A DNA stretch of 52,318 bases from a virus (lineage: Duplodnaviria > Caudoviricetes), in IMG/VR virus record IMGVR_UViG_3300032331_000666, positions 1-52,318 of that record, one strand, 5' to 3'. Made by a program: the position numbers and the translations under genes. The notes beneath the pieces are model-generated. The model did not search any database and was not told the DNA's origin. It worked only from the letters and a program-made list of their open reading frames with translations. Below are positions 2,299 to 47,301 of the stretch, piece by piece; position 1 is the stretch's first letter; each line of letters begins with the position of its first letter.

Positions 2299-2316
2299 TT
2301 AAGCATTTGATGATGG

Positions 2317-2346
2317 AAAAGGCTCTCTTCGGAGGGCCTTTTTTAT
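2317..2346 (+). terminator. Intrinsic terminator after the capsid gene
   Basis: AAAAGGCTCTC-TTCG-GAGGGCCTTTTTT: UUCG-loop hairpin plus U tract. Confidence 0.9.
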
Positions 2347-2405
2347 TTGCCAGTAAGCGTGAAAATACTACCGTTTACAGGCAAAAGTATTGTAAAATAA
2401 ACATA

Positions 2406-2463
2406 TCCAGGAACTACCTGGTTTATTAGACTGTCCTGGCAGACGCATATAAGACTAATAAAC
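2406..2463 (+). ncRNA. Structured RNA, candidate Mu-gpT-DE (Mu-like gpT downstream element) motif
   Basis: 9-bp stem GTTTATTAG(2421-29)/CTAATAAAC(2455-63) enclosing a CTGT-CCTG-GCAG hairpin; CCAGGA(2407-12) is complementary to TCCTGG(2434-39); located just downstream of a gpT-like capsid gene. Confidence 0.6.
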
Positions 2464-2489
2464 TTAACTTTATATGAAGGAAAATTATT

Positions 2490-2963
2490 ATGTCATCAAC
2501 AACCTTTTCGGGTCCAGTGACCTCTACAGCTGGTTTTATTACTGGCACAGGCGTTAATTCAACAGTTACAGCATCAACATTAACAGTAACAGCATCTGCA
2601 TACAATGGTCAAACAATCAACCTAAGCCGTGCAGCTGGTATCACAGTTACTCTTCCAGCAGCTACAGGTTCAAACGCTGTTTACAGATTTGAAGTTGCAA
2701 CATCTGTTACATCTAACAGTTACAAAATTCAAGTAGCTAACTCAACAGACGTTATGAATGGCTTCTCATCAGTTGCTGGTACTACAGGTACTGTATTCAG
2801 CACTCTTCCAGCTTCAGATACAATCACAATGAATGGTTCTACAACAGGTGGTTTAATTGGTTCATACGTTCAAATAACTGACCTTGCAACTGGTTATTAT
2901 TTAGTACAAGGATCTTTAGTAGGTTCTGGTACACCAGCTACACCATTTAGCGCAGCTGTTTAA
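2490..2963 (+). CDS. Virion structural protein (head fibre/decoration-like)
   Basis: MSSTTFSGPV start, ITVTLPAATGS, TPATPFSA end; S/T/G-rich. Confidence 0.6.
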   Translation: MSSTTFSGPVTSTAGFITGTGVNSTVTASTLTVTASAYNGQTINLSRAAGITVTLPAATGSNAVYRFEVATSVTSNSYKIQVANSTDVMNGFSSVAGTTGTVFSTLPASDTITMNGSTTGGLIGSYVQITDLATGYYLVQGSLVGSGTPATPFSAAV

Positions 2964-2972
2964 TTAATCACT

Positions 2973-2992
2973 GGGGGCACTTAGCCCCCTTT
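2973..2992 (+). terminator. Hairpin, weak terminator
   Basis: GGGGGC-ACTTA-GCCCCC followed by TTT. Confidence 0.55.
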
Positions 2993-3012
2993 ATAACCCA
3001 AGGAGATTAATT

Positions 3013-3525
3013 ATGGCAATGCAATATGATGTAAAACAAGGTCACATAGATCAAAGCGGCTATCTAGTAAAATTTGCAACTAGAGTTAAAGGCGTGTCAT
3101 ATGTAGGCACGGCTACTGCTGGATTTGTAGTTTTATTTGATACATTAACAACGCCAGTTTCATCTAGTGTTACTTATGGCAGATCTGGTACAACTGTAAC
3201 TGTAACTAAAGTAGCTCATGGATTAAGTACAGGAGATAAAATTGGTATTCATTTTGAATCTGGTACAGGTGGTGCAGCAACTGATGGTAACTACACAATA
3301 ACCAGATTAACTGCAGATACATTTACGCTTACAGATATTAATACTGGAACAATTACTGCATCACCAACAGCAGTATATTCTACAAAATGGCTATTAACTT
3401 ATAATTCTTCTGCAGCTGATACATATAATAATGCTCCAATTATCCCAGGCGAAGGTGTGCGTGTAGATAATGGCGTTTATGCTTATATGGTTAACATAGA
3501 AGCTACTCAAATATTTTACGGATAA
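3013..3525 (+). CDS. Virion protein with inserted small beta domain
   Basis: Internal VTVTKVAHGLSTGDKI...GNYTITR...DTFTL module; IPGEGV C-terminal motif; AAGGAG RBS. Confidence 0.55.
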   Translation: MAMQYDVKQGHIDQSGYLVKFATRVKGVSYVGTATAGFVVLFDTLTTPVSSSVTYGRSGTTVTVTKVAHGLSTGDKIGIHFESGTGGAATDGNYTITRLTADTFTLTDINTGTITASPTAVYSTKWLLTYNSSAADTYNNAPIIPGEGVRVDNGVYAYMVNIEATQIFYG

Positions 3526-30789: not shown

Positions 30790-33700
30790 ATGCCAATAGA
30801 TGTCAGGATGCCTGATGGGACTCTTGTAAAGAACGTCCCAGATAACATAACGCAAGCTGATTTGCTTGCCAGATATAATGCCTTCTCGGCACAACCTGCC
30901 ACGTCTATAGCTCCTGAAATACAAGTAAAACCACAAGCTCCTCAAGTTGGTCCTGAAGGCGCTCCTATACCTCCTATACTACAAACACAAACCCAAGTTT
31001 CAGAAGATAGACCACTTGCTGGATCTGCTAGAAAAGGCATAGTTAATTTACAGCAAACTGGTGAAAACTTACGCCTTGCTAATCTTATGGAGTTACAAGA
31101 CGCATACAAACAACAGTATGGTCAAGGCTATGAAAATGCTCCCCCAGAAAAGATTGTAGATCTACAAAAACTAGAAGATGATATTAATACTTCTAAACGT
31201 GTATCTACATCTTATGATTTAAAACGTCAAACACTTAGCAAGCAATATGGTATTACGCCATTATCTCAAAAGCTAGATGAAGTTCAATCTACTCCAGAAT
31301 ATCAAAATGCAAGTGGCATTCAAAAGTTTCAATCTATTGGTGAGACATTACTTAAAAACCCAGGAGACATACCATCTTACATTGGTAACATTGGATTAGA
31401 AAGTTTACCTAATTCAATGGCCATGATGGCTTCTGCTGTTGTTGCTAGGTATATGACTGGCAGTCCATCTTCTGCAGCTGTAGCAGGTGGAACTACATCT
31501 TCATTTACAGAGTTTGGCAATCAATATGTAAGTAACAGAGAACAAGGAAAATCCCACCAAGACGCTATGGCGGAAGCATCTGTTAAATCTGGAATCATTG
31601 GTTACTTTGATGCCGTATCATTTGGATCTGCTGGTAAAGCACTAGAAGAAATCATTAAAGAATTTAGTAAGGGTGCCATTAAATCTACTGCAAAAGAAGT
31701 AGGTAAAGAAACTGTTAAACAAGCAGCTTATGGTGCTGCTGGAGAAGCTGTAGGATCAGTTGCTACAGGACAGCCTATTGATCCACGTGCTGTAGTAGAA
31801 GAAGCCCTAGGTGAAATTGCTGGCGCACCTATGGAAGCTGTTACAACATACAGATCTAATAAAGCAATTGCAGATCAAAATGTACGACCAACACCGCCTC
31901 CAGTATCAGAAAGAGTAGAGCCAGAAGTAACTCCTATTCGACCTGCTACTACAGAACCTGCCACAGTAGAAACTTCCGCCCCTACAAAAGTAGATACATC
32001 ACATGATACTCAAGCTATGCTTGATGAGTTATCTGGCAAGGATGTTGAATATGTGCCAGAAGAAGAAATAAAACCTATTGGACCTCCAAGGCTTACAGAA
32101 GAGGAAAAGGCTCAGCTTGCACCATTAGATAAGCTGAATGCTAAAGACCGTAAGATACATAATATGCCAACGCCAGAACTTCAAGCAATGGCTGATCAAG
32201 GAATGATTCAATGGTCAGATGAATTTATTGATTCTTTAAACAAACCAAAACAAGAAGTTATTCAAACTACCCCCATGGGTAACAATACCGAATACCATGT
32301 TTTACAAAACGATCAAGGCCATGTTGCAAATCTTTACGATAAAGACGCTGGTCAATACGTTCCTGGAAGTTTGAGAATATTCCCTACTGAGACATTTGGA
32401 GAGCAAACAGAAACAGCAGCTAAGAATTTTGTTCAAGAGGAACAGGACAAAGCTGCACAATATGAACCATCAATTAAAGAAGAGCCTACAGGTATTATTT
32501 CTGAAGAAGAAAGACAATTTACTCCAGTAGGTGGCAGGCTTATCAATAAGAAAGATGCTGATAAATTAGCTCGTGAGTCAGCTATTGCATTAGAACAAAA
32601 TTTAAAGAATCAAGAAATTCAAAGAGACAAACAGATTAGACGTGAGATTCGTGAAGATAGGTTCCCAGCTGCTGAAACACCATCGCTAGCTTCAGCTCTT
32701 AAAGCTTTAGGTGGTATCAACCAATCCAATAAATTAGATATGCTAGGAGATACTGGCAAACTGTTTAATTATGAAAGTGCTTTTTCAAAAGATGGTGAGG
32801 ACTTACTTACCTATATTGAAAAGGGAGACCTTGATCAATACCTTCCACATCAAATACGTTTAAGTAATACACCTGAAGGCGAAGCATTTGATCCTAGACC
32901 TGGATATGAATATATATCTAAAGTTATTGAGTCAAAACAAAAAGCATATGATTACGAATATGAATTAGCTAAGATTGATCATGAAAATCAGATCAAAGAA
33001 AAATATCTAGCTAAACAATACATGGAACCTAACGAAGAAGCAAGAGTTGCTAGAATTGAAGATTTAAATTTAGGTCCGATGTATGAAAAAATAAAAGCCA
33101 AGCCAGGTGCTAACGTAGGAAGAATAGCAAAAATGCTAGGCCCTCAACTATATGGCAGCATGGAAAACATATCTGAAGTTTCTGTAAAAGAAATGGTTCA
33201 AAATTCGTTTGATGCAATTAAAACGATGATTGAAAAAGGTGTTATGGATAAGGGCAATATTAGCATTAATATGAATGTAAGCGACAGATCTATTACAATC
33301 AAAGATAATGGTAGTGGAATGAGTCCAGATGTTCTTCAAAATACATTTTTTACCATTGCTGGAACAAATAAAGAAACTGAGTTTGGCTCTGGAGGGTTTG
33401 GTATTGCTAAAATGTTATTTTTATTTGGCAATCAAAACGTAGAAGTCACTACCATGCGTGACGGACAAATTAGCCATTTTGTTGCGTCTGGAGAACAATT
33501 AAAAGCGTCTTTAGATGATCCATCTCAAGCTCCAGATATTAACACTTATGCTGCTGACCAATACAACAAAACAGAACTAAGAGAAGATTTTCCGCAAGGA
33601 CATGGCACTATAGTAACAGTTGTTGTTCCAGAAACATTTACCAATCCATCAACTGGGAAAACTGAAGATATTCCTTTTGTTGCAGATAAATTTGAATTTC

Positions 33701-36700
33701 CAGTATTAAGATATAGCCCATTATTTTCAAATATTGAAATGAGATTTAATGAGGAAAATTTAATGCTTGGATCTTCATTTCCCAAAGAAGATTACACTAC
33801 ATTTGTTAATGCGGATTTTGATTGGGGTACTGCAAGAATATACGTAAGTACATCTGAAAGAGATAGATGGGGTAAAAATTTACATGTACTATCCAATGGT
33901 TTATGGCAATTTAGTGAAGAATTAACAAAAAAACCAGGTGATAAATATGCAGATAATATTCCATATAGATTTTATGTAGACATTGTTTCTAGAGCAAAAC
34001 CAGATGAACAAGGATATCCATTTACATTTAATCGCCAAAGTCTTACAAAAGAAGCAACTGCTGATCTTGATCTTATAAAAAATTACTTGTGGCTTAACTA
34101 CACAAAAAAAGATATATCTAGCACAAGTACTAGCTTTGGAAATGTACATTACCTAAGCAAAAAAAATGGCAAAATTAATGTTTCAGCAAAAGAAGATTTA
34201 AATCCAGAAGTTAATGTTCAAGAAATTTCAGATGGCATTCAAGAAGGATCTAATGTAAAAGTTATTGATGGTAAGTTAATTGTAAACGGAAAAGAAATAC
34301 CAGCATTAAATCTACAAGATCTAAAAAATGCAACTATTGACTTAGATGAGTTAAAAATACCTCAAGACAATGTCAAATCAAATGACATCATGGTTCATGA
34401 TAATTTAGGAGTAGAAATTGAAGGAAACTTCAGGCCTATTACTGAATTAGCTAAAGAAAAGTTTGGCGAACGTTTTGATCAATTTATGTATGAAATTGGA
34501 GACGTATTTAAAACATTAAGAGACCGTGTCGTTTATCTTAATATTAAAGGTGAATTACCAAATTATGATGATGTTGGCTATAAAGATTTAGCTAACCATG
34601 CTATTGGTATATCATTTGACAAAGAATATAGAGGTGTTAGTATTAAACTACCATTTAATGGTATGTTTATTAACCCAGCATTACCAGAATTTACAGATCC
34701 AGAAGGTGCTGGTTTTGGTTTATTTGGTACAATGATACATGAGTTGGCTCATTATCAAGTACGAGATCATGAAGAAAAGTTTCCTGCAGAAATGCAAAGA
34801 CTTAGTATTGTTTTAAAGAAAGACAAAGAATTTGACTTGAATGGTTTAGAACAAGAGCTTGTAAAGTCAGTTATTAAAAATAAAGATATATTAGACTATT
34901 TAAATGACCTTGGAGTAAATTATGAATCAGAAGCTATTGGACAGCGTTTCAAAGACAGCGAATACGAAAGAGCAACTAGACGCACTTCTCAGAACATATC
35001 TGAGTCTGGGAGAGCGAGACAACCTGGACGGGAAGTATCTAGCAACATTAAATCAAGGGATCAAATTGCTAGACAAATGCAGCAATATCAATCAGTTCCG
35101 TCAGCGAATCAAACAACACAAAGGCGTGTAGCAGGACAACCACCACCTAGAAACTTTAGAGGCCAAGAAGTATTGCCTCAATGGCACGGTCCTGAAGAAT
35201 CTAAAATAGATGATTGGATTTACAATCTTCAAAACAAACAGATTGATACTAAGCGTGTTCAAGAAGCTATTGGTGACATAGAAGAGAACTGGAACGTATA
35301 CGAAAAAGAACAGCTATACCATGGTAGAACTGCATCAGGTATTCGTAACTTCTTACTCAAAGAACTTCTACCAGTTATCAAAGAAATTGAACGCTTAAAA
35401 ATTAGCCCTGAAGACATTCGTACTTACTTGCATAATCGTCATGCAGAAGAGCGTAACATTCGCATGAATGAAAAAAATCCAGATATCTACGATCCTAAAA
35501 CAGGAAGAACAACTCCTAATCCACTTAAAGACAAAGCATCTGGTATTCATACTAACGATGCACGAGCTTATTTAGCAGGTTTAGATCCAGCTAGAAAACA
35601 AATCTTAGAACAGATTGCAACTAAGTTTGATGAAATGGTTAAAGGCACACAAGATGTATTAATAGCTTCTGGTGCAGAAACTAAAGAGACTATAGACAAA
35701 TGGAATAAAATTTACAAACATTACGTCCCATTATTTAGAGTTGAAGATGATATGGCCAGACCATCAGGCCTGAGTGGTGTTGGTCAAGGCTTTGGTTCTC
35801 GTGGTGACTTTAGTAAACGTGCTATGGGTTCAGAGAAAGATGTTCAAGATATTTTAAGTAACATTATTGCTCAGCGTGAACGTGCTTTAATCCGTGCTGA
35901 AAAAATTAGAGTAGGCCGTGCTTTATATGGCATGGCTATACAGAATCCTAATCCAGACTTCTGGTTACCTATTAACCCTGATGCCATTAGAAATAAGAAA
36001 CAAGCTATTGCTGAATTAAGACGCATGGGTATTCCTGACGCTGAAGATGTAGTAAACAATCTAATGGCTGAGCCTAAAGAGCGTTATCTTAAAAAGATAA
36101 ACGCTGCTGAAGGAGCTGTTGAGCCCGATGAAAATTTTGACTTTGATTCAGGTCTTCCAGTTAATGAAAGTAAAGAGGTTGTGGCATCTAAGATTAATGT
36201 CATGGCTCGATATAAAGACTTTGTATTCCCAGTTAGAATTAATGGTAAAGACAGGTATATATTCTTTAATAAGAATGATCCAAGATCATTACGCATGGTT
36301 CAATCATTAAAGAACTTAGATGTAGAGAATCTAGGATTAGCATTAAGTATTGCTGGTAAGTTTACCCGCTGGTTTAAAAACGTTAATACACAATACAATC
36401 CAGTATTTGGACTAGTCAACTTCGTCCGTGACTTTAGTGGCGCATTACTTAACTTAACTAGCACAGAGATTAAGGGCGAACAGGCTAAAGTTATTGCAGG
36501 CGCTTATAAAGCTATGGGTGGTATCCTAAACGTACACCGTGCTGAGCGTAAAGGCAAACCATTACCTACTGGACCATGGGCTAAGCTATACCAAGAAGCC
36601 CGTGCTGAAGGATTCCAAACAGGCTATCGTGATTCATTGATTCGTAATCAAGAAGAAATGCAAATTATTGAACATACGCTTGAACAGTTTAAAGATAGTA

Positions 36701-37944
36701 ATACTAAGAAAGCTTTTTACTCTGTGATTGGAGGACTTACAGACTTCAATGACATGATGGAAAATGCTATTCGCTTATCTGCTTATAAGGTAGCTCTTGA
36801 CAAAGGTCTATCAAAACAAAAAGCAGCGATCATTGCTAAGAATTTAACAGTTAACTTTGATAAGAAGGGTGCTAAAACTGCTCAAGTCAATGCGCTTTAT
36901 GCATTCTTCAACGCATCTATTCAAGGTACTGAACGTATCTATCAAACAATTAAGGGCCCTAAAGGCAAGATGATTATTGGTGGTGGTATCTTAGCTGGTA
37001 TGGTTCAAGCTGTAATGCTGGCAGCTGCTGGATATGACGATGATGATCCTCCAGAGTTTGTTCGTGAAAAGAACTTTATTATTCCATTGATTGATGGTAC
37101 ATACTTAACCGTACCTTATCCATTAGGTTATAACGTGCTACCTAACGCAGGCCGTATTGTTATGGACTTTATGTTACATGGTGGACGTGATCCAGGTAAG
37201 CATTCAGTATCTTTATTAGCATCCACTTTAAATTCATTTAACCCATTAGGTAACACAAGCCTTTCATTCCAAACACTTGCCCCTACAATTGCAGATCCAT
37301 TGGTTGCATTAGGTGAAAATAAAGATGCGTTTGGTAGACCTATCTCTCGTAAGGATCGTGCTACAGCACCAACGCCTGGCTATACAAGATCAAGAGAAAC
37401 AGCATCTAAAATTAGCCAAGGATTAGCTTACTTCCTTAACTTAGCATCAAATGGATCTAAGTATCAAAAAGGTTATATTAGTCCAACGGCTGATGAGCTT
37501 GACTTTATTGCAGGCCAGGTCGGTGGTGGTTTGTATCGTGAAGTCACTAAAGCTGGTAAAGCTATTAGCGCAATAGTCACTGGTGAAGAGATTCCAACAT
37601 ACCAAAGACCAGTGGTGGGTCGTTTTGCAGGCAAGACAGGATCACAAGCATCCGTATCACAATCATTCTATGATAATGTGACTCGCATGACTGACCACGA
37701 GAATGAGATAAAAGGTCGTATGAAGAATAGAGAAGACGTAGAAGGATATTTAACAGATCATCCAGAGGCTAGATTATGGAAGAGAGCTAACTCTGTTGAG
37801 AATAAAATTAATGAATTGAATAAAAGAAAGCGTTTATTTGCAGAACGTGGCTTCCCTAAAGAGCGTATCCAAGCTGTTGATGCTCAAAAAACTATGCTCA
37901 TGCAAAGATTTAATACTCAGGTTAAGAACTTACGTCCTGATTAA
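30790..37944 (+). CDS. Giant polyvalent/ejection protein: GHKL ATPase + HExxH metallopeptidase + LPD38-like C-terminus
   Basis: KEMVQNSFDA, IKDNGSGM, SGGFGIAK (GHKL boxes); MIHELAH...H; HYVPLFR, NPVF..VNF.RD, LYAFFNASIQG, ENKDAFGRPI. Confidence 0.8.
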   Translation: MPIDVRMPDGTLVKNVPDNITQADLLARYNAFSAQPATSIAPEIQVKPQAPQVGPEGAPIPPILQTQTQVSEDRPLAGSARKGIVNLQQTGENLRLANLMELQDAYKQQYGQGYENAPPEKIVDLQKLEDDINTSKRVSTSYDLKRQTLSKQYGITPLSQKLDEVQSTPEYQNASGIQKFQSIGETLLKNPGDIPSYIGNIGLESLPNSMAMMASAVVARYMTGSPSSAAVAGGTTSSFTEFGNQYVSNREQGKSHQDAMAEASVKSGIIGYFDAVSFGSAGKALEEIIKEFSKGAIKSTAKEVGKETVKQAAYGAAGEAVGSVATGQPIDPRAVVEEALGEIAGAPMEAVTTYRSNKAIADQNVRPTPPPVSERVEPEVTPIRPATTEPATVETSAPTKVDTSHDTQAMLDELSGKDVEYVPEEEIKPIGPPRLTEEEKAQLAPLDKLNAKDRKIHNMPTPELQAMADQGMIQWSDEFIDSLNKPKQEVIQTTPMGNNTEYHVLQNDQGHVANLYDKDAGQYVPGSLRIFPTETFGEQTETAAKNFVQEEQDKAAQYEPSIKEEPTGIISEEERQFTPVGGRLINKKDADKLARESAIALEQNLKNQEIQRDKQIRREIREDRFPAAETPSLASALKALGGINQSNKLDMLGDTGKLFNYESAFSKDGEDLLTYIEKGDLDQYLPHQIRLSNTPEGEAFDPRPGYEYISKVIESKQKAYDYEYELAKIDHENQIKEKYLAKQYMEPNEEARVARIEDLNLGPMYEKIKAKPGANVGRIAKMLGPQLYGSMENISEVSVKEMVQNSFDAIKTMIEKGVMDKGNISINMNVSDRSITIKDNGSGMSPDVLQNTFFTIAGTNKETEFGSGGFGIAKMLFLFGNQNVEVTTMRDGQISHFVASGEQLKASLDDPSQAPDINTYAADQYNKTELREDFPQGHGTIVTVVVPETFTNPSTGKTEDIPFVADKFEFPVLRYSPLFSNIEMRFNEENLMLGSSFPKEDYTTFVNADFDWGTARIYVSTSERDRWGKNLHVLSNGLWQFSEELTKKPGDKYADNIPYRFYVDIVSRAKPDEQGYPFTFNRQSLTKEATADLDLIKNYLWLNYTKKDISSTSTSFGNVHYLSKKNGKINVSAKEDLNPEVNVQEISDGIQEGSNVKVIDGKLIVNGKEIPALNLQDLKNATIDLDELKIPQDNVKSNDIMVHDNLGVEIEGNFRPITELAKEKFGERFDQFMYEIGDVFKTLRDRVVYLNIKGELPNYDDVGYKDLANHAIGISFDKEYRGVSIKLPFNGMFINPALPEFTDPEGAGFGLFGTMIHELAHYQVRDHEEKFPAEMQRLSIVLKKDKEFDLNGLEQELVKSVIKNKDILDYLNDLGVNYESEAIGQRFKDSEYERATRRTSQNISESGRARQPGREVSSNIKSRDQIARQMQQYQSVPSANQTTQRRVAGQPPPRNFRGQEVLPQWHGPEESKIDDWIYNLQNKQIDTKRVQEAIGDIEENWNVYEKEQLYHGRTASGIRNFLLKELLPVIKEIERLKISPEDIRTYLHNRHAEERNIRMNEKNPDIYDPKTGRTTPNPLKDKASGIHTNDARAYLAGLDPARKQILEQIATKFDEMVKGTQDVLIASGAETKETIDKWNKIYKHYVPLFRVEDDMARPSGLSGVGQGFGSRGDFSKRAMGSEKDVQDILSNIIAQRERALIRAEKIRVGRALYGMAIQNPNPDFWLPINPDAIRNKKQAIAELRRMGIPDAEDVVNNLMAEPKERYLKKINAAEGAVEPDENFDFDSGLPVNESKEVVASKINVMARYKDFVFPVRINGKDRYIFFNKNDPRSLRMVQSLKNLDVENLGLALSIAGKFTRWFKNVNTQYNPVFGLVNFVRDFSGALLNLTSTEIKGEQAKVIAGAYKAMGGILNVHRAERKGKPLPTGPWAKLYQEARAEGFQTGYRDSLIRNQEEMQIIEHTLEQFKDSNTKKAFYSVIGGLTDFNDMMENAIRLSAYKVALDKGLSKQKAAIIAKNLTVNFDKKGAKTAQVNALYAFFNASIQGTERIYQTIKGPKGKMIIGGGILAGMVQAVMLAAAGYDDDDPPEFVREKNFIIPLIDGTYLTVPYPLGYNVLPNAGRIVMDFMLHGGRDPGKHSVSLLASTLNSFNPLGNTSLSFQTLAPTIADPLVALGENKDAFGRPISRKDRATAPTPGYTRSRETASKISQGLAYFLNLASNGSKYQKGYISPTADELDFIAGQVGGGLYREVTKAGKAISAIVTGEEIPTYQRPVVGRFAGKTGSQASVSQSFYDNVTRMTDHENEIKGRMKNREDVEGYLTDHPEARLWKRANSVENKINELNKRKRLFAERGFPKERIQAVDAQKTMLMQRFNTQVKNLRPD

Positions 37945-42956: not shown

Positions 42957-43304
42957 ATGACCACAAGGCTCATCAACGATCATACTATTAAAATCACTTA
43001 TGATATGTTGAGAAAGATGCCTCCCTTCAATGAATGGAACCTTCCAGCTCCGCACAAAATAATATTTGAAAGCAATACAGACCCAACAATTTGTGGTGAG
43101 TTTGATGTAGAGCCTATGGTTATGAGAATCAGCACACACCACCAAGAAACTTATGTCAACATGATGAGAACTGTTGCACATGAGATGGTTCATCTAAAAC
43201 TTTACTTAGATGGAAAAACACATTATGATAAACACGATAAGACATTTAGAAAGATGATGTTTCAATTCAATGCCTTATATGGATTTGATAGGAAAGAATT
43301 ATAA
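42957..43304 (+). CDS. SprT-like zinc metallopeptidase
   Basis: TVAHEMVH...HDKTF (HExxH plus distal H). Confidence 0.75.
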   Translation: MTTRLINDHTIKITYDMLRKMPPFNEWNLPAPHKIIFESNTDPTICGEFDVEPMVMRISTHHQETYVNMMRTVAHEMVHLKLYLDGKTHYDKHDKTFRKMMFQFNALYGFDRKEL

Positions 43305-43321
43305 ACTTACGGGGGAACACA

Positions 43322-44026
43322 GTGAAATATAAATCAGTATTAGTAATATCAGACTTGCATATACCTTACCATCATCCTGATGCTTTTGCGTTTCTTAAAG
43401 CTCTTAAAACAAAATACAAGCCAGATCACATAGTTAATATAGGCGATGAATTAGATTGTCATGCTATGTCTATGCATGATTCTGATCCTGATCTTTACTC
43501 AGCAGGCCATGAGTTGGCAGCCTCCATATCTTACATTCAAACACTTGAAAAGATATTTCCTAAGATGACGTTGGTTCATTCTAACCATTCATCTATGTTA
43601 TTTAGACGTGCTTTAAAACATGGTGTTCCTAAAGGATACCTTAAAGACTACAATGATTATCTTGGTGTAGGTAAAGGATGGCAATGGGTAGAAGATCATA
43701 CAGTTACACTTTCAGATAATTCACGTTGCTTTTTTACGCACGGACTATCTGCTGATGTGCTTAAAGTAGCTATGCAGTACGGAATGCACACTGTGCAGGG
43801 CCACTACCATACCAAGTTCAGCATAGGCTATTACTCTAATCCAGATCAGTTAGTCTGGGGCATGCAGGTAGGTTGTTTGATTAATCAGAAGTCTATGGCA
43901 TTTCAATACGCAAAGAACTTTAAGACTAGATTCATTGTAGGTTGCGGTATGATTATTAATGGTCAACCAAAACTTATGCCTATGATGCTTAATGAAAATG
44001 GTAAATGGATAGGTAAATTATTATGA
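43322..44026 (+). CDS. Calcineurin-like metallophosphoesterase
   Basis: SDLH, GDELD, SNH, THG, GHYH motifs; GTG start with GGGGGA RBS. Confidence 0.88.
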   Translation: MKYKSVLVISDLHIPYHHPDAFAFLKALKTKYKPDHIVNIGDELDCHAMSMHDSDPDLYSAGHELAASISYIQTLEKIFPKMTLVHSNHSSMLFRRALKHGVPKGYLKDYNDYLGVGKGWQWVEDHTVTLSDNSRCFFTHGLSADVLKVAMQYGMHTVQGHYHTKFSIGYYSNPDQLVWGMQVGCLINQKSMAFQYAKNFKTRFIVGCGMIINGQPKLMPMMLNENGKWIGKLL

Positions 44027-44193
44027 GTTATGTAATGATTGTTATTATGTTTGGCAATATGTCTGTTGAAACTTATAGTGTAAATTTTGACTCTCAACTT
44101 ACTTGTGAGAACGCAAAAACAGCTATAATAGAAAAGTATGATAATGTTAAACGTCCAGGGATCACCCCTGTGATTTTATGTGTAAGGAAATAG
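44023..44193 (+). CDS. 56-aa hypothetical protein
   Basis: MSYVMIVIMFG...FDSQLTCENAK...CVRK; overlapping-start coupling. Confidence 0.55.
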   Translation: MSYVMIVIMFGNMSVETYSVNFDSQLTCENAKTAIIEKYDNVKRPGITPVILCVRK

Positions 44194-44194
44194 T

Positions 44195-44386
44195 ATGGCA
44201 AGTGAAGCAGGAAAAGGTAGTAAGCAAAGACCTACAAATAGAGAAGCATTTGAAGAGTCATATGATCGTATATGGAAAAAGAAAAAACAGTTAAGAGAAG
44301 GTATGCATTATGAAACTGATACCGATAATCTTCATGATATTAAGTATGATGTAAAGTATATGCCCGAAGATCACTATGAAGAGTGA
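44195..44386 (+). CDS. Hypothetical protein
   Basis: GKGSKQRP...F..SYDRIW motif. Confidence 0.65.
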   Translation: MASEAGKGSKQRPTNREAFEESYDRIWKKKKQLREGMHYETDTDNLHDIKYDVKYMPEDHYEE

Positions 44387-44534
44387 GGTTCAGTCGCCTT
44401 GTATTAAAATTTGTAAGCTAGAAAATAATCACTGTGTTGGATGCGGTAGATCTAAGCATGACATTACTTATTGGAGTGAATACAGTAATGAAAAGAAGTT
44501 TAAGATAGTAAGACAACTTAAGAAGAAAAAATGA
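44376..44534 (+). CDS. DUF1289-family Cys-rich (putative Fe-S/Zn) protein
   Basis: SPCIKIC...CVGCGR...I..W; 52 aa, not in ORF track. Confidence 0.8.
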   Translation: MKSEVQSPCIKICKLENNHCVGCGRSKHDITYWSEYSNEKKFKIVRQLKKKK

Positions 44535-44638
44535 ACAAACTTCAAGCAATCGTAGAAGCTATTATAATCTTAACTATCATGTGGTTTTTTTATGGCTTTA
44601 TTAAAGTATGTCTTATGGCCTACGACTTCTTTATCTAA
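44531..44638 (+). CDS. 35-aa membrane peptide
   Basis: MNKLQAIVEAIIILTIMWFFYGFIKVCLMAYDFFI; ATGA overlap. Confidence 0.5.
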   Translation: MNKLQAIVEAIIILTIMWFFYGFIKVCLMAYDFFI

Positions 44639-45253
44639 CTACCAAAACATAGTCAATACGTCATCAATACGTATTAAATGCCCCTGCAATGTAATCCTGT
44701 AATCACCTTCAACATATTCTTTTAGTCCAGCAATTCTATGTAATACAGTTCCATCATGGCCTATGATCTCTTTCTCTGCATAAGGCAGATACTTTTGCTC
44801 TCCATCTTCAATATAATCCAACCCTCCCCCACCTGTAGGTAGTTTAATTACCACTGTAAATGCATAGGGGTCAATACTGCCTAAATCTAGAGTAATATGC
44901 GGGTAGTCTTTATGCCAAAGTCCTGCATGGGTGAGCAGGAATCGGCTTGAAACGAATATATGAAAGGATGGGTGAGATAGAGAATAGTTAAGCTTTATTG
45001 GCTCTTTAAACTGATCTGATAAGTAATCAATAATGATATCATATGTGTCGCCAAACTGTTCACGCAGTATGGGATTTAATACCTTGAGATCTTGTCTGTA
45101 TTCTGGAGTCTTACCATCTAGGTAAGCGTTTCTTCCAAGCGTATAGAAGAAAAATTCATTTGATCTGGATACCCAATACTTCTGAAGTCTAAAGACTTTA
45201 TCAGCTATCTCTTCAGTATTGATATCTAATTTGTGAGAAATAAAAGGGGGCAT
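44639..45253 (-). CDS. Fe(II)/2-oxoglutarate oxygenase-like protein
   Basis: HKD (HxD), FTVVIKLP.GGGGL, distal LHRI and RITLQGH (R-x-T) fit a DSBH dioxygenase; ATG at 45253 (alternative TTG at 45262). Confidence 0.7.
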   Translation of the reverse strand: MPPFISHKLDINTEEIADKVFRLQKYWVSRSNEFFFYTLGRNAYLDGKTPEYRQDLKVLNPILREQFGDTYDIIIDYLSDQFKEPIKLNYSLSHPSFHIFVSSRFLLTHAGLWHKDYPHITLDLGSIDPYAFTVVIKLPTGGGGLDYIEDGEQKYLPYAEKEIIGHDGTVLHRIAGLKEYVEGDYRITLQGHLIRIDDVLTMFW

Positions 45254-45260
45254 AGCCCCC
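45242..45260 (-). terminator. Terminator/attenuator hairpin after pqqA
   Basis: Minus strand GGGGGC-TAT-GCCCCC-TTTT, 9 nt after the pqqA stop. Confidence 0.75.
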
Positions 45261-45269
45261 AATTATACA

Positions 45270-45341
45270 TTACTTATTCATTACGTACATCGTCACTTCA
45301 AAGCCAAATCTCATTTCTGTTGCTGATGGAGTTGTCCACAT
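45270..45341 (-). CDS. pqqA: Pyrroloquinoline quinone precursor peptide PqqA (MWTTPSATEMRFGFEVTMYVMNK)
   Basis: Canonical MW..P....R.GFEVTMY with E-x3-Y core; AAAGGA RBS; 23 aa. Confidence 0.97.
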   Translation of the reverse strand: MWTTPSATEMRFGFEVTMYVMNK

Positions 45342-45524
45342 AATATTTTCCTTTGTATATAAAAAAGACCTATTTTTGCTACACAAACACCTTTGTATGT
45401 AATTTACTCCATACAAGCTAGTTTGTATTGAATATAATGCGCCTTTTGCTATACAAAGTCCTCCATAAAACCATGAATGACAGGTAAAAAAGTAACTCTA
45501 ACAATAAGTAGAGATAGAAATAAG

Positions 45525-45542
45525 TGTAAAGTATGCTTTACA
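45525..45542. promoter_or_regulatory. Palindromic operator-like site TGTAAAG-TATG-CTTTACA
   Basis: Perfect 7-bp inverted repeat in a divergent intergenic region. Confidence 0.5.
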
Positions 45543-45675
45543 TTGGTTTTCACTCAAATCATTGATTTATATACAAATGAATGAAAACAATATTTAATCA
45601 ACTGTAAAAATCAATATGCCTTCTATATAACATTTAGTTATATACATCTATTTCTATATAACTTATATAAATATG

Positions 45676-45704
45676 TTGACACGGATATAGGGATTTGATA
45701 TAGT
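45676..45704 (+). promoter_or_regulatory. Strong sigma70 promoter
   Basis: TTGACA-17 nt-TATAGT. Confidence 0.85.
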
Positions 45705-45709
45705 TTCGT

Positions 45710-45815
45710 TGTGAGTCCCTTTCCTCACATGTCTTTCCTTTACATCTCTCTCGTAAAGTCTCGGTGTCCCTCGCACCTTAAAACCCTTAGATTAAAACCT
45801 AGGGGTTTTTCTTTT
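45710..45815 (+). ncRNA. Small RNA with three C/U-loop hairpins plus intrinsic terminator
   Basis: TGTGAG-TCCCTTTC-CTCACA; CTTTAC-ATCTCTCTC-GTAAAG; GGTGT-CCCTC-GCACC; bounded by a promoter and a terminator; no RBS-led ORF. Confidence 0.8.
45780..45815 (+). terminator. Intrinsic terminator of the sRNA
   Basis: AAAACCCTTAG-ATTAAAAC-CTAGGGGTTTT, then TCTTTT. Confidence 0.8.
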
Positions 45816-45822
45816 ATACCCC

Positions 45823-45851
45823 TTGCATTTTGTTTTAAACAGGAGTAAATT
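45823..45851 (+). promoter_or_regulatory. Probable promoter for the replication operon
   Basis: TTGCAT-17 nt-TAAATT. Confidence 0.5.
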
Positions 45852-45919
45852 TATAAATGAGAGAAGTGAATGAAAGACTAGTGATGTATTTCTACGTCAT
45901 TATCTTCCTATTCCCTTTT

Positions 45920-46170
45920 GTCCGTACTCCAAACGTTATCACTGAACCTAAATGGGTTGCGTGGAATAATACATAGGCCTTGTTACACCCGCAAGCGAGC
46001 CTCGTGAACTTAAATGGGTATCACACAAGATATACTGCCACGGGGTGACTTGCCAACAGTATGTCGATTGAACATTAACTCTGTGTAGGACTGGTATTGG
46101 GTAGCTTCTATTGCTTAATGTGGGTCAAAGGTGTGTCCATCTCACCCTTGGCGGAGCCATATTCTAAAAA
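45920..46170 (+). other. Structured, relatively GC-rich element upstream of the replication genes
   Basis: TGAACYTAAATGGGT at 45943 and 46005; GATATACTG/CAGTATGTC stem; AGGC-CTTG/CAAG-GCCT stem. Confidence 0.45.
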
Positions 46171-46184
46171 AACGAAAGGATCAA

Positions 46185-46358
46185 ATGAGTTTTATAAAAA
46201 GAAAGGAAGACGGCTTCCTAACAAAGAAGCTTGTACAAGAACTAAAGTTGTATCATACTACTCCTGAGGAACTAGATCCTATTAGAAAGATCGCAATTGA
46301 TTACTTACTCTCGGATAGTTGGAAGAATTACAAAACATATAAGGGAACTCCACAATGA
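46185..46358 (+). CDS. Hypothetical protein
   Basis: AAAGGA RBS before MSFIKRK. Confidence 0.55.
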   Translation: MSFIKRKEDGFLTKKLVQELKLYHTTPEELDPIRKIAIDYLLSDSWKNYKTYKGTPQ

Positions 46359-46528
46359 ATTTTACACATGCGGTTGTAGATGATGGCGATATTATAAGAA
46401 AGTATCGTTGGTCTAAACGAGAAGCTAAATGGTATAAAGATTCTCATCCTGATATAGATGTGATACAGTTGCCTAAAGAAGAAGTAAAACCATTTAACAC
46501 TAATGATTATGAAGAGGCACCATATTAA
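46355..46528 (+). CDS. 57-aa hypothetical protein
   Basis: MNFTHAVVDDGDIIRKYRWS...EEAPY; AAGGGA RBS. Confidence 0.6.
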   Translation: MNFTHAVVDDGDIIRKYRWSKREAKWYKDSHPDIDVIQLPKEEVKPFNTNDYEEAPY

Positions 46529-46686
46529 TGACTGACACAAAGAAAACAATAATAGTTGAAAACGTTTTAGTTAAGGGGTATATTAAACACGCTAATGGAA
46601 AAAAGACTATGTTTGAATTTAACAAGCAAGACTTTAAACCAGCATCATTCGAGAAAATATTTGAGGAAGTAGGTCGTAAGCTTTAA
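46528..46686 (+). CDS. 52-aa hypothetical protein
   Basis: MTDTKKTIIVENV...; TAATG coupling at both ends. Confidence 0.6.
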   Translation: MTDTKKTIIVENVLVKGYIKHANGKKTMFEFNKQDFKPASFEKIFEEVGRKL

Positions 46687-46913
46687 TGTATACAAAGTTA
46701 GATGATATGAAAATGGCACAAAAGATTTTGCTCTATATTGAAAAGAATCCAAGAGCCACAAGAAAAGACATTACAAAGTATTGCTTTACAAATATGCGTA
46801 GGTTGAGACAGTTAGAAGCAGAAGGATATATAAATATCCCACCACCTATGCCAAGAGAAATCAGGAATAGGGATTACTATGAGAACAAAGCCATTCAATC
46901 AGCAAGTTCATGA
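46686..46913 (+). CDS. Small winged-helix-like protein
   Basis: IL.YIE.NP.ATRKDI...RLRQLE.EGYI. Confidence 0.5.
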   Translation: MYTKLDDMKMAQKILLYIEKNPRATRKDITKYCFTNMRRLRQLEAEGYINIPPPMPREIRNRDYYENKAIQSASS

Positions 46914-47301
46914 TGCCTGTGATCCTCCCGCAAGAGAGGCAATAATTAAATACATTAAAGCTACATGGGGTTTAAATGCTTGGCACAACCCTGATAAGTA
47001 TGCGGTAGATTTAATTATAGAGCGTGATAAAGAGGCGATTGGATACGCAGAGATAGAAATGAGAGATTGGGATCATTGCCCGTTCAAAACAATCCATATA
47101 CCTAAACGAAAAGATAAACTATTTGATAATGGTAAGCACACAATTTATTTCGTTGTGTCAAGAGGCATTAGCAAGGCTTGGTATGTTAATTCACAAGTGA
47201 TTAAAAATTCAGCAGTGCAAGAGATACCTAACAAAGCTGTTAGTCAAGGAGAATATTTTTATGATGTGCCTACATACCTATTCACTGAAATAAGTTTGTA
47301 G
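46879..47301 (+). CDS. PD-(D/E)XK-like nuclease
   Basis: YAVDLI...GYAEIEMR...TIHIP.RK.K. Confidence 0.55.
   Translation: MRTKPFNQQVHDACDPPAREAIIKYIKATWGLNAWHNPDKYAVDLIIERDKEAIGYAEIEMRDWDHCPFKTIHIPKRKDKLFDNGKHTIYFVVSRGISKAWYVNSQVIKNSAVQEIPNKAVSQGEYFYDVPTYLFTEISL

What the first reader, a model, noticed from the sequence alone, without database searches (positions are those of the whole stretch)
45270..45341. Phage-encoded PqqA: hidden auxiliary metabolic gene that also points to the host
Seen: a 23-codon ORF, MWTTPSATEMRFGFEVTMYVMNK, with an AAAGGA RBS and its own terminator, too short for the ORF track. Established: PqqA supplies the Glu and Tyr (E-x3-Y) of PQQ, the cofactor of MxaF/XoxF methanol dehydrogenases, and is consumed stoichiometrically. 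The MWT.P.ATEMRFGFEVTMYVMNK form resembles Methylophilaceae PqqA. No pqqB-E is present in the window. Inference: the phage supplies only the consumed precursor to boost host methanol oxidation during infection, and the host is a streamlined methylotroph (Methylopumilus/OM43-like). Viral pqqA may already have been noted in metagenomes, so novelty needs a literature check.
Basis: partly seen in the sequence, partly recalled or inferred. Interest (0 to 1): 0.8.

Follow-up and report, generated by a model that had tools for sequence, protein, structure and literature searches.

The report
Phage-borne PQQ precursor gene pqqA
A freshwater phage carries an intact 23-codon copy of pqqA, the small peptide that methanol-eating bacteria use up to make the cofactor PQQ; the gene is real and conserved, but phage copies of it have been reported before.

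Summary
Window 45270-45341 (- strand) encodes MWTTPSATEMRFGFEVTMYVMNK. It scores above the curated cut-offs of Pfam PqqA and NCBIfam TIGR02107, and has an AAAGGA ribosome-binding site and a GC-rich terminator. The record is a phage contig related by its capsid to Pelagibacter phage HTVC023P. No pqqB-E, PqqD or methanol dehydrogenase was found in it.

The same orphan gene is in every Methylophilales or Methylophilaceae phage record that a GenBank phage search returned (nine records, five isolate types), mostly unannotated. It is also intact in 120 of 120 IMG/VR contigs fetched, and shows purifying selection.

The peptide motif is near-specific to Methylophilaceae, which carry several pqqA copies but one pqqC. 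The host family is well supported. The genus is not resolved, and freshwater runs hold close relatives.

The best reading is an auxiliary gene that supplies the consumed precursor to the host's PqqB-E. This is inferred, and expression was not tested.

New here: pqqA sits directly upstream of a phage Fe(II)/2-oxoglutarate oxygenase, whose start codon lies inside the pqqA terminator hairpin. This cassette is kept in all 10 closest oxygenase relatives. Relatives without the oxygenase carry pqqA after the capsid gene instead.

Viral pqqA was published in 2020 (Lake Baikal), and this scan has noted it on other DNA many times. Moderate interest.

The parts
45270..45341 (-). pqqA coding sequence (23 codons plus TAA), PQQ precursor peptide with Glu15 and Tyr19
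   Evidence: Translation; Pfam PF08042 41.3 bits and TIGR02107 38.5 bits, both above their curated cut-offs
45349..45354 (-). Shine-Dalgarno-like AAAGGA, 7 nt upstream of the ATG
   Evidence: Read. An AGGA/GGAG/GAGG/AAGG word lies 4-17 nt upstream in 120 of 120 assessable viral copies. DNA similarity to bacterial copies extends over this site
45236..45260 (-). Intrinsic-terminator-like hairpin GGGGGC-TAT-GCCCCC plus T tract; it holds the ATG of the next gene in its loop and 3' arm
   Evidence: 6 GC pairs, loop 3, tail TTTTATTTCT; folding energy -11.2 kcal/mol; kept with compensatory arm changes in 9 related loci
44639..45253 (-). 204-aa Fe(II)/2-oxoglutarate-dependent oxygenase-fold protein (ATG at 45253), same strand and directly downstream of pqqA
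   Evidence: No Pfam hit at E<=1; phrog_24927, unknown function; AlphaFold2 pLDDT 94.3; Foldseek PDB top hits WelO5, TMq 0.66-0.76, E 6.5e-8; invariant H114, D116, H172, R186 in 29 sequences
45342..46130 (.). Long non-coding region upstream of pqqA. It holds a divergent strong sigma-70-like promoter on the + strand (45676-45704) and local inverted repeats. The pqqA promoter itself was not identified with confidence
   Evidence: The best - strand candidate is TTTACA-18-TATTGT at 45530-45501 (9 of 12), and the number of promoter-like sites found does not exceed the shuffles

Best explanation
This is a phage-carried, host-derived copy of pqqA, the ribosomal peptide whose Glu15 and Tyr19 are cross-linked and cut out to form one molecule of PQQ.

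The phage has a capsid of the HTVC023P type and most likely infects a freshwater member of the Methylophilaceae. It brings only the consumed substrate and relies on the host's PqqD/E, PqqB, PqqC and peptidases.

The gene has its own ribosome-binding site and a strong terminator, so it would be transcribed as a short abundant message. That would keep precursor supply, and hence PQQ for XoxF/MxaF methanol dehydrogenase, going while the host's own pqqA messages decay during infection. Energy supply for phage production would be sustained.

Shown: gene identity, phage context, intactness and purifying selection across many phages, host-type sequence, host possession of pqqC, and absence of other pqq genes from the record.

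Inferred: expression, timing, use of the peptide by host enzymes, and any benefit to the phage.

The terminator also overlaps the start of a phage Fe(II)/2OG oxygenase gene. That gene would be reached only by read-through (inferred).
For: Identity.

Phage context:
- Major head, tail fibre, ejection protein, helicase, primase, Erf, exonuclease and RusA families are present.
- The record is a virus record.
- The capsid protein is 63-71% identical to Pelagibacter phages HTVC023P/027P and others.

Not a host fragment:
- DNA similarity to 120 bacterial pqqA loci is confined to 45260-45365 and is at most 89.5%.
- The pqqA-oxygenase junction recurs in 10 other IMG/VR contigs.
- A 695-nt contig of run X2 with no differences covers 45318-46012, so it joins only the first 24 nt of pqqA (its 5' end) to the region upstream of it.

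Recurrence:
- tblastn of the peptide in 50,697 phage records hit 12 records. Nine are Methylophilales or Methylophilaceae phages (P19250A, Venkman, MEP301, MEP401, MEP402, four Melnitz), one is an uncultured podovirus, and two are bacterial contigs filed as phage.
- All 6 phage copies read out (P19250A, Venkman, MEP301, MEP402, one Melnitz record and the uncultured podovirus) are intact with E-x3-Y; MEP401 and the other three Melnitz records were not read.
120 of 120 hold an intact 23-25-codon ORF. 0 of 120 hold pqqB-E in 1.01 Mb of flanks.
- The flanking gene families are phage ones: YqaJ, DUF3310, cell-wall hydrolase, Erf, capsid and peptidase M15.

Selection:
- 115 copies of exactly 23 codons give 103 distinct DNA sequences but only 37 peptides.
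- pN/pS is 0.27 on the 11 codons that the search pattern did not fix.
- W2 and P5 are invariant in 115 of 115.

Host:
- Of 120 genome loci with the motif, 91 are named Methylophil*/OM43, 25 carry only a higher-rank name and 4 carry another name.
- The identical peptide is in 2 bacterial loci.
- Five host genomes have 3-7 pqqA matches and one pqqC each.

Dosage logic: Methylophilaceae carry 3-12 pqqA copies but single pqqBCDEFG (PMC4109929, passages read).

Each of 5 related phage records has exactly one pqqA, although its position differs.
Against: There is no evidence of expression. No RNA run was listed, so timing and level are unknown. No clear sigma-70 promoter was found directly upstream.

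PQQ is a stable cofactor, and it is not shown that new synthesis is limiting within one infection cycle.

The 120-contig count comes from a pattern that fixes residues 9-19. Intactness of E15 and Y19 in that set is therefore by construction. Only the 6 copies read out of the 10 phage records from the tblastn are free of this bias.

The record is 83% complete, so other pqq genes in the missing part cannot be excluded.

The conserved pairing with an oxygenase of unknown substrate is not explained by simple precursor supply.
Confidence: 0.7

Rival explanations
1. The biochemistry is the same but the biology differs. pqqA would be a 'moron' expressed from a prophage (lysogenic conversion), giving a lysogen one more precursor copy, rather than an aid during lytic infection.
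For: The gene is a self-contained cassette (own RBS and terminator). It is antisense to both nearest neighbours in 43 of 121 loci and lies at a divergent start in the window. The window has lambdoid-type recombination genes: Erf, a PD-(D/E)XK exonuclease and RusA. In bacterial genomes 68 of 129 copies with the motif are orphans away from pqqB, and some of these could be prophage-borne.
Against: No integrase or repressor family was found among the 42 window ORFs scanned: 32 against Pfam and 10 more against PHROGs only. The window shares proteins with only 2 of 120 bacterial pqqA loci, and one of those (L231) is itself a phage-like contig. The gene is also in a T4-like lytic myovirus, Melnitz, and sits in the late capsid operon in close relatives.
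Confidence: 0.1
2. The peptide is a decoy or regulator. It would bind host PqqD/PqqE without yielding PQQ, or serve some role unrelated to PQQ, to redirect host metabolism.
For: Nothing direct. The conserved pairing with a phage oxygenase leaves room for a modified product.
Against: The peptide is identical to bacterial copies (2 loci) and keeps E15 and Y19. The 6 phage copies read out from the unbiased tblastn set all keep them. A decoy would be expected to differ from the substrate at the reactive residues.
Confidence: 0.05
3. The segment is an attachment-site relic. The phage would integrate into a host pqqA gene and carry a copy so that the gene is restored on integration.
For: Small genes followed by terminators are common integration targets, and host genomes have many dispersed pqqA copies.
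Against: Identity to bacterial copies is at most 89.5% and covers the whole ORF plus the RBS rather than a 3' part with a perfect core. No integrase was found. The position of the gene differs among close relatives.
Confidence: 0.03
4. The gene is an assembly chimera or a neutral hitch-hiker with no function in the phage.
For: pqqA is a repeat in the community. In four runs the summed contig depth over the two bins that hold pqqA (45176-45443) is about 3.5 to about 114 times that of the neighbouring bins, and contigs break at the ORF edges. Such repeats can mis-join assemblies.
Against: The same junctions recur in 10 other contigs whose oxygenases are 67-91% identical to the window's. Complete isolate genomes carry the gene. 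120 of 120 copies are intact and pN/pS is 0.27.
Confidence: 0.02

Closest known systems
Viral PqqA of a Lake Baikal virus population predicted to infect Methylophilaceae (VP_266; Coutinho et al. 2020, Microbiome, PMC7678222; passages read)
   Same: A virus-encoded PQQ precursor peptide, read as an auxiliary gene that supports methanol oxidation in a methylotrophic host from fresh water.
   Different: In the passages read, VP_266 also encodes a methanol dehydrogenase. This window has no such enzyme. The window's capsid is related to the HTVC023P type. The paper's supplements were not seen.
Orphan pqqA copies of Methylophilaceae chromosomes (3-12 per genome with a single pqqBCDEFG; Beck et al. 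2014, PMC4109929; passages read)
   Same: The same 23-residue peptide type, with the identical sequence in 2 bacterial loci. They are stand-alone cassettes with an RBS and a terminator, unlinked to pqqB. 68 orphan copies, 26 pqqB-linked and 35 too near a locus edge, of 129 copies.
   Different: The window's copy lies in a phage genome between phage genes. Its DNA is at most 89.5% identical to any bacterial copy sampled, and only over the ORF and RBS.
Unannotated pqqA of cultured Methylophilales and Methylophilaceae phages (P19250A, Venkman, MEP301, MEP401/402, Melnitz)
   Same: The peptides are 73-96% identical, orphan and intact. In Venkman and MEP301, as in the uncultured podovirus MW202481, the gene is likewise antisense to its neighbours.
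   Different: These are different phage lineages. None of the regions fetched shows the oxygenase downstream. The gene is unannotated in 5 of those records. In the four Melnitz records and in the uncultured podovirus MW202481 it lies under an annotated 'hypothetical protein'; this was seen to be on the opposite strand in the one Melnitz record opened and in MW202481. The MEP301 and MEP401/402 papers do not contain 'pqq' in their main text. The Melnitz paper mentions PQQ only as a medium supplement.
Cyanophage psbA (D1), recalled and not tested here
   Same: It works alike in logic: the phage carries only the fast-consumed part of a host energy system and uses the rest of the host machinery.
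   Different: D1 is a protein subunit that is replaced, whereas PqqA is a substrate that is destroyed. There is no sequence or structural relation.

Membership tests
PqqA (PF08042 / TIGR02107) | Profile score above the curated cut-off | tested here: met
   41.3 bits against 21.1; 38.5 bits against 20, equivalog model
PqqA (PF08042 / TIGR02107) | Conserved Glu-x3-Tyr that becomes PQQ | tested here: met
   E15 and Y19 in ...GFEVTMY...; kept in the 6 phage copies read out of the unbiased tblastn set
PqqA (PF08042 / TIGR02107) | Short translated peptide (about 20-40 residues) with its own start signals | tested here: met
   23 codons, with AAAGGA 7 nt upstream; an RBS-like word in 120 of 120 assessable viral copies. 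Translation itself was not tested
PqqA (PF08042 / TIGR02107) | Genomic linkage to pqqBCDE | tested here: not met
   None in the window. This is not required in Methylophilaceae, where 68 copies were orphan against 26 linked to pqqB, and where one 1.3-Mb genome has three pqqA copies, none near pqqC
PqqA (PF08042 / TIGR02107) | Bound by PqqD, cross-linked by PqqE and converted to PQQ | not testable with these tools
   Needs complementation or an in vitro assay. A complex prediction was not sent because the peptide is under the tool's 30-residue guidance
Phage auxiliary metabolic gene | A host-type metabolic gene inside a bona fide phage genome, conserved across phages | tested here: met
Phage auxiliary metabolic gene | Expressed during infection with an effect on host metabolism | not tested
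Fe(II)/2-oxoglutarate-dependent oxygenase (neighbour gene 44639-45253) | Double-stranded beta-helix fold | tested here: met
   AlphaFold2 pLDDT 94.3, pTM 0.91; 391 PDB chains at E<=0.001, led by WelO5, amino-acid dioxygenases and prolyl hydroxylases
Fe(II)/2-oxoglutarate-dependent oxygenase (neighbour gene 44639-45253) | His-x-Asp...His iron triad and a basic residue for 2-oxoglutarate | tested here: met
   H114, D116, H172 and R186 are invariant in 29 aligned sequences. Their roles are assigned by position in the motif, not by superposition
Fe(II)/2-oxoglutarate-dependent oxygenase (neighbour gene 44639-45253) | Match to a curated sequence family | tested here: not met
   No Pfam or NCBIfam family at E<=1. 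A profile search of PDB sequences gave only chance-level KaiB hits, E 0.13

The most novel reading that the evidence does not exclude
The phage Fe(II)/2-oxoglutarate oxygenase that follows pqqA may work on the PqqA pathway. It might hydroxylate the cross-linked Glu-Tyr intermediate, the step that PqqB performs in bacteria, or modify PqqA into a different product. The cassette would then be a two-gene phage module for cofactor synthesis rather than a lone precursor gene.

For it: all 11 oxygenases of this clade, the window's included, have pqqA directly upstream. The shared hairpin is kept by compensatory changes. Related phages that lack the oxygenase place pqqA elsewhere. The nearest solved folds include small-molecule and free-amino-acid oxygenases.

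Against it: the 11 form one clade, so the linkage may be a single inherited event. The 70 more distant homologues sit in phages without pqqA.
Probability: 0.08. Interest if true: 0.75.

Novelty: new member of a known kind. Interest (0 to 1): 0.4.

Why it matters
PQQ is the cofactor of the methanol dehydrogenases that let Methylophilaceae, abundant in lakes and coastal seas, turn methanol into energy.

A phage gene for the one component of PQQ synthesis that is destroyed in each turnover would be a compact way to keep host energy supply running during infection. It would link phages to C1 carbon flow.

Practically, the 23-codon gene is missed by gene callers. It is unannotated or overlain by an annotated hypothetical protein in the isolate records. 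Its peptide motif is close to family-specific, so it can serve as a cheap host marker for uncultured phages of Methylophilaceae.

This window extends that marker to a phage with an HTVC023P-type capsid. It also shows that within one lineage the gene occupies different places, with one copy in each of the six records searched (the window and five others). That argues for selection for its presence.

Viral pqqA itself is already in print, and this scan has met it often.

Tried and rejected
1. Expression. The look-up of sequencing runs listed no RNA holder for 43300-47300. Nothing can be said on expression.

2. Read-level test of chimerism. Only Logan contigs were available. They break at the edges of pqqA because the gene is a repeat in these communities. 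No listed piece bridges the 3' end of pqqA to the oxygenase (223 pieces were not shown). I relied instead on independent IMG/VR contigs.

3. A shared upstream operator. The window and its relatives have local inverted repeats (TACAxACAAA..TTTGTxTA, TATACAC..GTGTATA) before pqqA. No common 7-mer or palindrome is shared across the 117 viral or 121 bacterial upstream regions, so I dropped the idea of a conserved host regulator site.

4. Rfam: no family reached its gathering score anywhere in the window. No tRNA was found.

5. Genus-level host call by GC and tetranucleotide correlation. This was not decisive. The best-matching 'bacterial' locus, L231 (r 0.91), is itself a phage-like contig sharing 9 structural proteins with the window.

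6. Oxygenase in hosts. Alignment A1 found no match in 201 genomes of the family of G001. The same alignment matched phage record G010. So it was not found in those searched.

7. Sequence-only identification of the oxygenase failed. The fold search was needed.

8. The careful tree search did not finish within the time limit. The tree reported is the quick one with SH-aLRT support only.

9. A complex prediction of PqqA with the oxygenase or with PqqD was not sent. The peptide is shorter than the tool's guidance, and an enzyme-substrate pair is a poor use of the job.

10. Supplements of the papers were closed. The Lake Baikal supplements may hold the VP_266 sequences and were not seen.
Full report
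**Observation**

The - strand of 45270-45341 reads MWTTPSATEMRFGFEVTMYVMNK followed by TAA. The ORF lister shows it only as the end of a 48-aa TTG frame. AAAGGA lies 7 nt before the ATG, at 45349-45354. Nine nucleotides after the stop there is a hairpin GGGGGC-TAT-GCCCCC followed by TTTTATTT, at 45260-45236. The terminator scan lists it first, and the 1.8-kb region holds 8 such sites against 0.8 expected from shuffles.

The peptide matches all 19 positions of Pfam PqqA at 41.3 bits against a cut-off of 21.1. It also matches the NCBIfam equivalog model TIGR02107 at 38.5 bits against a cut-off of 20. Glu15 and Tyr19 form the E-x3-Y pair.

**Context**

The window is a whole IMG/VR virus record of 52,318 bases, linear, with CheckV completeness of 83%. 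Nearly all long ORFs are on the + strand.

PHROG and Pfam scans name the following:
- a major head protein, tail fibres, virion structural proteins and a DNA ejection protein;
- a 2384-aa virion-type protein;
- RusA, a PD-(D/E)XK exonuclease, Erf, a SprT-like protein and a metallophosphoesterase;
- a helicase, a primase and a cell-wall hydrolase.

No integrase or repressor family appeared among the ORFs scanned. The capsid protein is 63-71% identical to those of Pelagibacter phages HTVC023P and HTVC027P, Planktothrix phage Pag-Yong1 and phage DSL-LC04, and 56% identical to those of Roseobacter phages CRP-901/902. None of these is among the records in which the peptide search found pqqA.

The window holds no pqqB-E (with a positive control), no PqqD domain and no PQQ-dependent alcohol dehydrogenase.

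**Is it a host fragment or a chimera?**

blastn of 45000-45700 against 120 bacterial pqqA loci gave 110 matches. All lie within 45260-45365, that is, the ORF and its ribosome-binding site. The best is 89.5% over 86 nt. Nothing outside the gene resembles a host.

Contigs of four public runs from four studies were laid on 43300-47300. Summed depth over the two bins that hold pqqA (45176-45443) is about 3.5 to about 114 times that of the neighbouring bins, depending on run and bin. The contigs fray exactly at the ORF edges, so pqqA is a repeat shared by many genomes in these communities. One 695-nt contig of run X2 with no differences covers 45318-46012, so it joins only the first 24 nt of pqqA (its 5' end) to the upstream region. 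No listed piece bridges the 3' junction.

Independent support comes from IMG/VR. Ten other contigs carry the same pqqA-hairpin-oxygenase arrangement, with oxygenases 67-91% identical to the window's. An assembly artefact is therefore very unlikely.

**Recurrence in phages**

tblastn of the peptide against 50,697 GenBank phage records hit 12 records:
- Nine are phages isolated on Methylophilales or Methylophilaceae: P19250A, Venkman, MEP301, MEP401, MEP402 and four Melnitz records.
- One is an uncultured podovirus, MW202481.
- Two, labelled 'Acinetobacter phage MD-2021a', are bacterial contigs with pqqBCDE next to the match.

I read out 6 phage copies (P19250A, Venkman, MEP301, MEP402, one Melnitz record and MW202481). 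In each the ORF is intact with an AGGA-type site and E-x3-Y. MEP401 and the other three Melnitz records were not read.

The gene is unannotated in P19250A, Venkman, MEP301, MEP401 and MEP402. In MW202481 and the four Melnitz records it lies under an annotated 'hypothetical protein'. In MW202481 and the one Melnitz record opened, that ORF is on the opposite strand.

All 120 hold an intact ORF of 23-25 codons, and 7 have the window's exact peptide. None has pqqB-E in 1.01 Mb of flanks.

The commonest neighbour families are YqaJ exonuclease (36 loci), DUF3310 (30), cell-wall hydrolase (26), capsid (17), peptidase M15 (16) and Erf (13).

Orientation relative to the nearest ORFs is mixed. The gene is antisense to both in 43 of 121 loci, co-oriented with both in 33, at a convergent end in 22 and at a divergent start in 7 (including the window). 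It is at a locus edge in 16.

**Selection**

Of the 121 copies, 115 are exactly 23 codons. They comprise 103 distinct DNA sequences but only 37 peptides. On the codons not fixed by the search pattern (2-8 and 20-23), pS is 0.51 and pN is 0.14, so pN/pS is 0.27. Trp2 and Pro5 are invariant in 115 of 115.

A Shine-Dalgarno-like word is present in 120 of 120 assessable copies. A terminator-like hairpin with a T tract is present in 47 of 120 by a strict rule.

Conservation of residues 9-19 in this set is by construction and is not evidence.

**Host**

By record title (my count):
- 91 are named Methylophilaceae, Methylophilales, a genus of that family or OM43.
- 25 carry only a higher-rank name.
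- 4 carry another name: two contigs of an Acidovorax caeni MAG, one Rhodocyclaceae MAG and one Pseudomonadales MAG.

The window's exact peptide is in two bacterial loci, L235 (a Methylophilales MAG) and L248.

Five genomes reached through these loci have 3, 3, 7, 5 and 4 pqqA matches and one pqqC each. In the 1.3-Mb Ca. Methylopumilus universalis genome none of the three pqqA copies is near pqqC. Of 129 bacterial copies, 26 lie just upstream of pqqB, 68 are orphans and 35 are too near a locus edge to tell. This agrees with Beck et al. 2014, who report 3-12 pqqA copies but single pqqBCDEFG in Methylophilaceae (PMC4109929, passages read).

The family-level host call is therefore strong. The genus is open. 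Window GC is 38.4%, and tetranucleotide similarity does not separate genera.

Runs labelled aquatic, freshwater and lake water from three other studies hold pieces that are 95-97% identical over 465-903 nt. This points to fresh water rather than the marine OM43 clade.

**The neighbour gene**

On the same strand, the ORF 44639-45253 (204 aa from its ATG) has no Pfam or NCBIfam match. It has 247 unnamed relatives in metagenomes.

An AlphaFold2 model from a 29-sequence alignment is confident, with pLDDT 94.3. It matches Fe(II)/2-oxoglutarate oxygenases: WelO5 with TMq 0.66-0.76 and E 6.5e-8, then amino-acid dioxygenases and prolyl hydroxylases. H114, D116, H172 and R186 are invariant.

Its ATG occupies the loop and the first base of the 3' arm of the pqqA terminator hairpin.

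Among the 80 best of 171 IMG/VR relatives of this protein, the 10 closest (67-91% identity) all have pqqA co-oriented upstream. The gap is 16-53 nt in nine and 498 nt in one. None of the 70 more distant relatives (54% identity or less) has a PqqA-like ORF within 3 kb.

In the nine close-gap loci the hairpin is kept while its arms change in step (G-C, T-A, A-T, G-T) and codon 2 of the oxygenase changes among Pro, Thr and Ser. Of the 26 more distant homologues whose starts I printed, none shows such a hairpin, and many appear joined to an upstream gene.

On a quick maximum-likelihood tree the 11 pqqA-linked oxygenases form one side of a branch with SH-aLRT 99. One ancestral insertion is therefore enough to explain the linkage, and it is not independent evidence of a shared function.

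The oxygenase was not found in 201 genomes of the host family. The same alignment matched phage record G010.

**Position varies within the lineage**

At least seven IMG/VR contigs, plus L231 (a phage-like contig in a bacterial assembly), share 7-11 structural proteins with the window, with capsids 80-91% identical. In these, pqqA lies co-oriented about 100-270 nt after the capsid gene.

The window's equivalent gap, 2299-2489, holds only a terminator-like hairpin.

Five related records, two of them rated 100% complete, each have exactly one pqqA. Only one of the five has the oxygenase, and there pqqA is next to it. L015 shares the early genes (58-94% protein identity, most above 84%) and the region upstream of pqqA (92% DNA identity) with the window, but not the oxygenase.

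One copy per genome at changing sites is what selection for presence of the gene would give.

**Mechanism**

Established knowledge, recalled and partly read: PqqA is bound by PqqD and cross-linked at Glu and Tyr by the radical-SAM enzyme PqqE. It is then trimmed, hydroxylated by PqqB and oxidised by PqqC. One peptide is spent per PQQ.

A phage that brings only pqqA must use host enzymes, and the candidate hosts have them. The most likely role is to keep precursor supply up during infection and so sustain PQQ-dependent methanol oxidation. The hosts' own habit of keeping many pqqA copies against one set of enzymes suggests that precursor dosage matters.

Expression, timing and benefit are inferred, not shown.

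**Comparison and novelty**

Coutinho et al. 2020 reported a PqqA gene in a Lake Baikal virus population predicted to infect methylotrophs and proposed the same role (PMC7678222, passages read).

Literature searches:
- 'pqqA' + 'phage' gave 60 papers, of which 20 were listed.
- 'pqqA' + 'viral' + 'auxiliary metabolic' gave 3 papers, 2 listed.
- 'pqqA' + 'Methylophilaceae' + 'viruses' gave 2, one work.
- 'OM43' + 'phage' + 'PQQ' gave 3.

None turned up another report of pqqA in methylotroph phages. The other listed hit, PMC13188868 (reservoir viruses and phosphate-solubilising bacteria), was seen only in the search listing and was not opened.

The MEP301 and MEP401/402 papers do not contain 'pqq' in their main text. 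The Melnitz paper has PQQ only as a medium supplement. The P19250A and Venkman papers were not seen.

This scan's own notes hold 133 earlier findings of the same kind on other DNA.

The thing is therefore a new member of a known kind. What is specific here is:
- the phage lineage;
- the conserved pqqA-oxygenase cassette with a shared hairpin;
- the alternative positions of the single copy within one lineage.

**Verdict**

Interest 0.4.

Noticed in passing
window 45342-46130: About 790 nt without a convincing ORF lie between pqqA and the rightward genes. The region holds a near-consensus + strand promoter (TTGACA-17-TATAGT with TG, 45676-45704), followed about 75 nt later by a terminator-like hairpin (45780-45809). 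This could bound a short RNA or a leader. There are several local inverted repeats and no Rfam match.
   Followed up: partly
window 2299-2489, and L043, L062, L078, L032, L074, L047, L101, L231: In relatives with an 80-91% identical capsid protein, pqqA sits just after the capsid gene. The window has only a terminator-like hairpin in that gap. There is one pqqA per record in 5 of 5 related records.
   Followed up: yes
L231 (contig of an assembly titled Gammaproteobacteria bacterium strain CCP3-SC1AL1): This 'bacterial' contig shares 9 structural proteins with the window (capsid 87%) and has the same GC. It looks like a phage of this lineage inside a bacterial assembly, and might be a lead to a host.
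   Followed up: partly
L008 (CAKLQF020000010.1) and CAKLQH020000055.1: Records filed as 'Acinetobacter phage MD-2021a' in the phage collection. L008, the one opened, carries ppk and pqqBCDE, so it is bacterial chromosome. The second record gave the same pqqA match but was not opened.
   Followed up: partly
L004 (MW202481.1) 2067-2195, and L007 (Melnitz) 2961-3056: In these records a 'hypothetical protein' is annotated on the strand opposite to the intact pqqA ORF. It is probably a mis-call.
   Followed up: partly
window 30790-37944: A 2384-aa ORF matches phrog_14770 (E 9e-174, unknown function) over its C-terminal 1000 residues. It is a giant virion-type protein of unknown role.
   Followed up: no
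G001 (Ca. Methylopumilus universalis chromosome): Three pqqA copies lie at about 416, 457 and 1186 kb, while the single pqqC is at 577 kb. This streamlined genome has no pqqA next to its pqq operon.
   Followed up: partly
L007 (Melnitz) 3001-3066: In the T4-like Melnitz phage, pqqA lies 14 nt upstream of a tRNA-Leu gene and is co-oriented with it.
   Followed up: no
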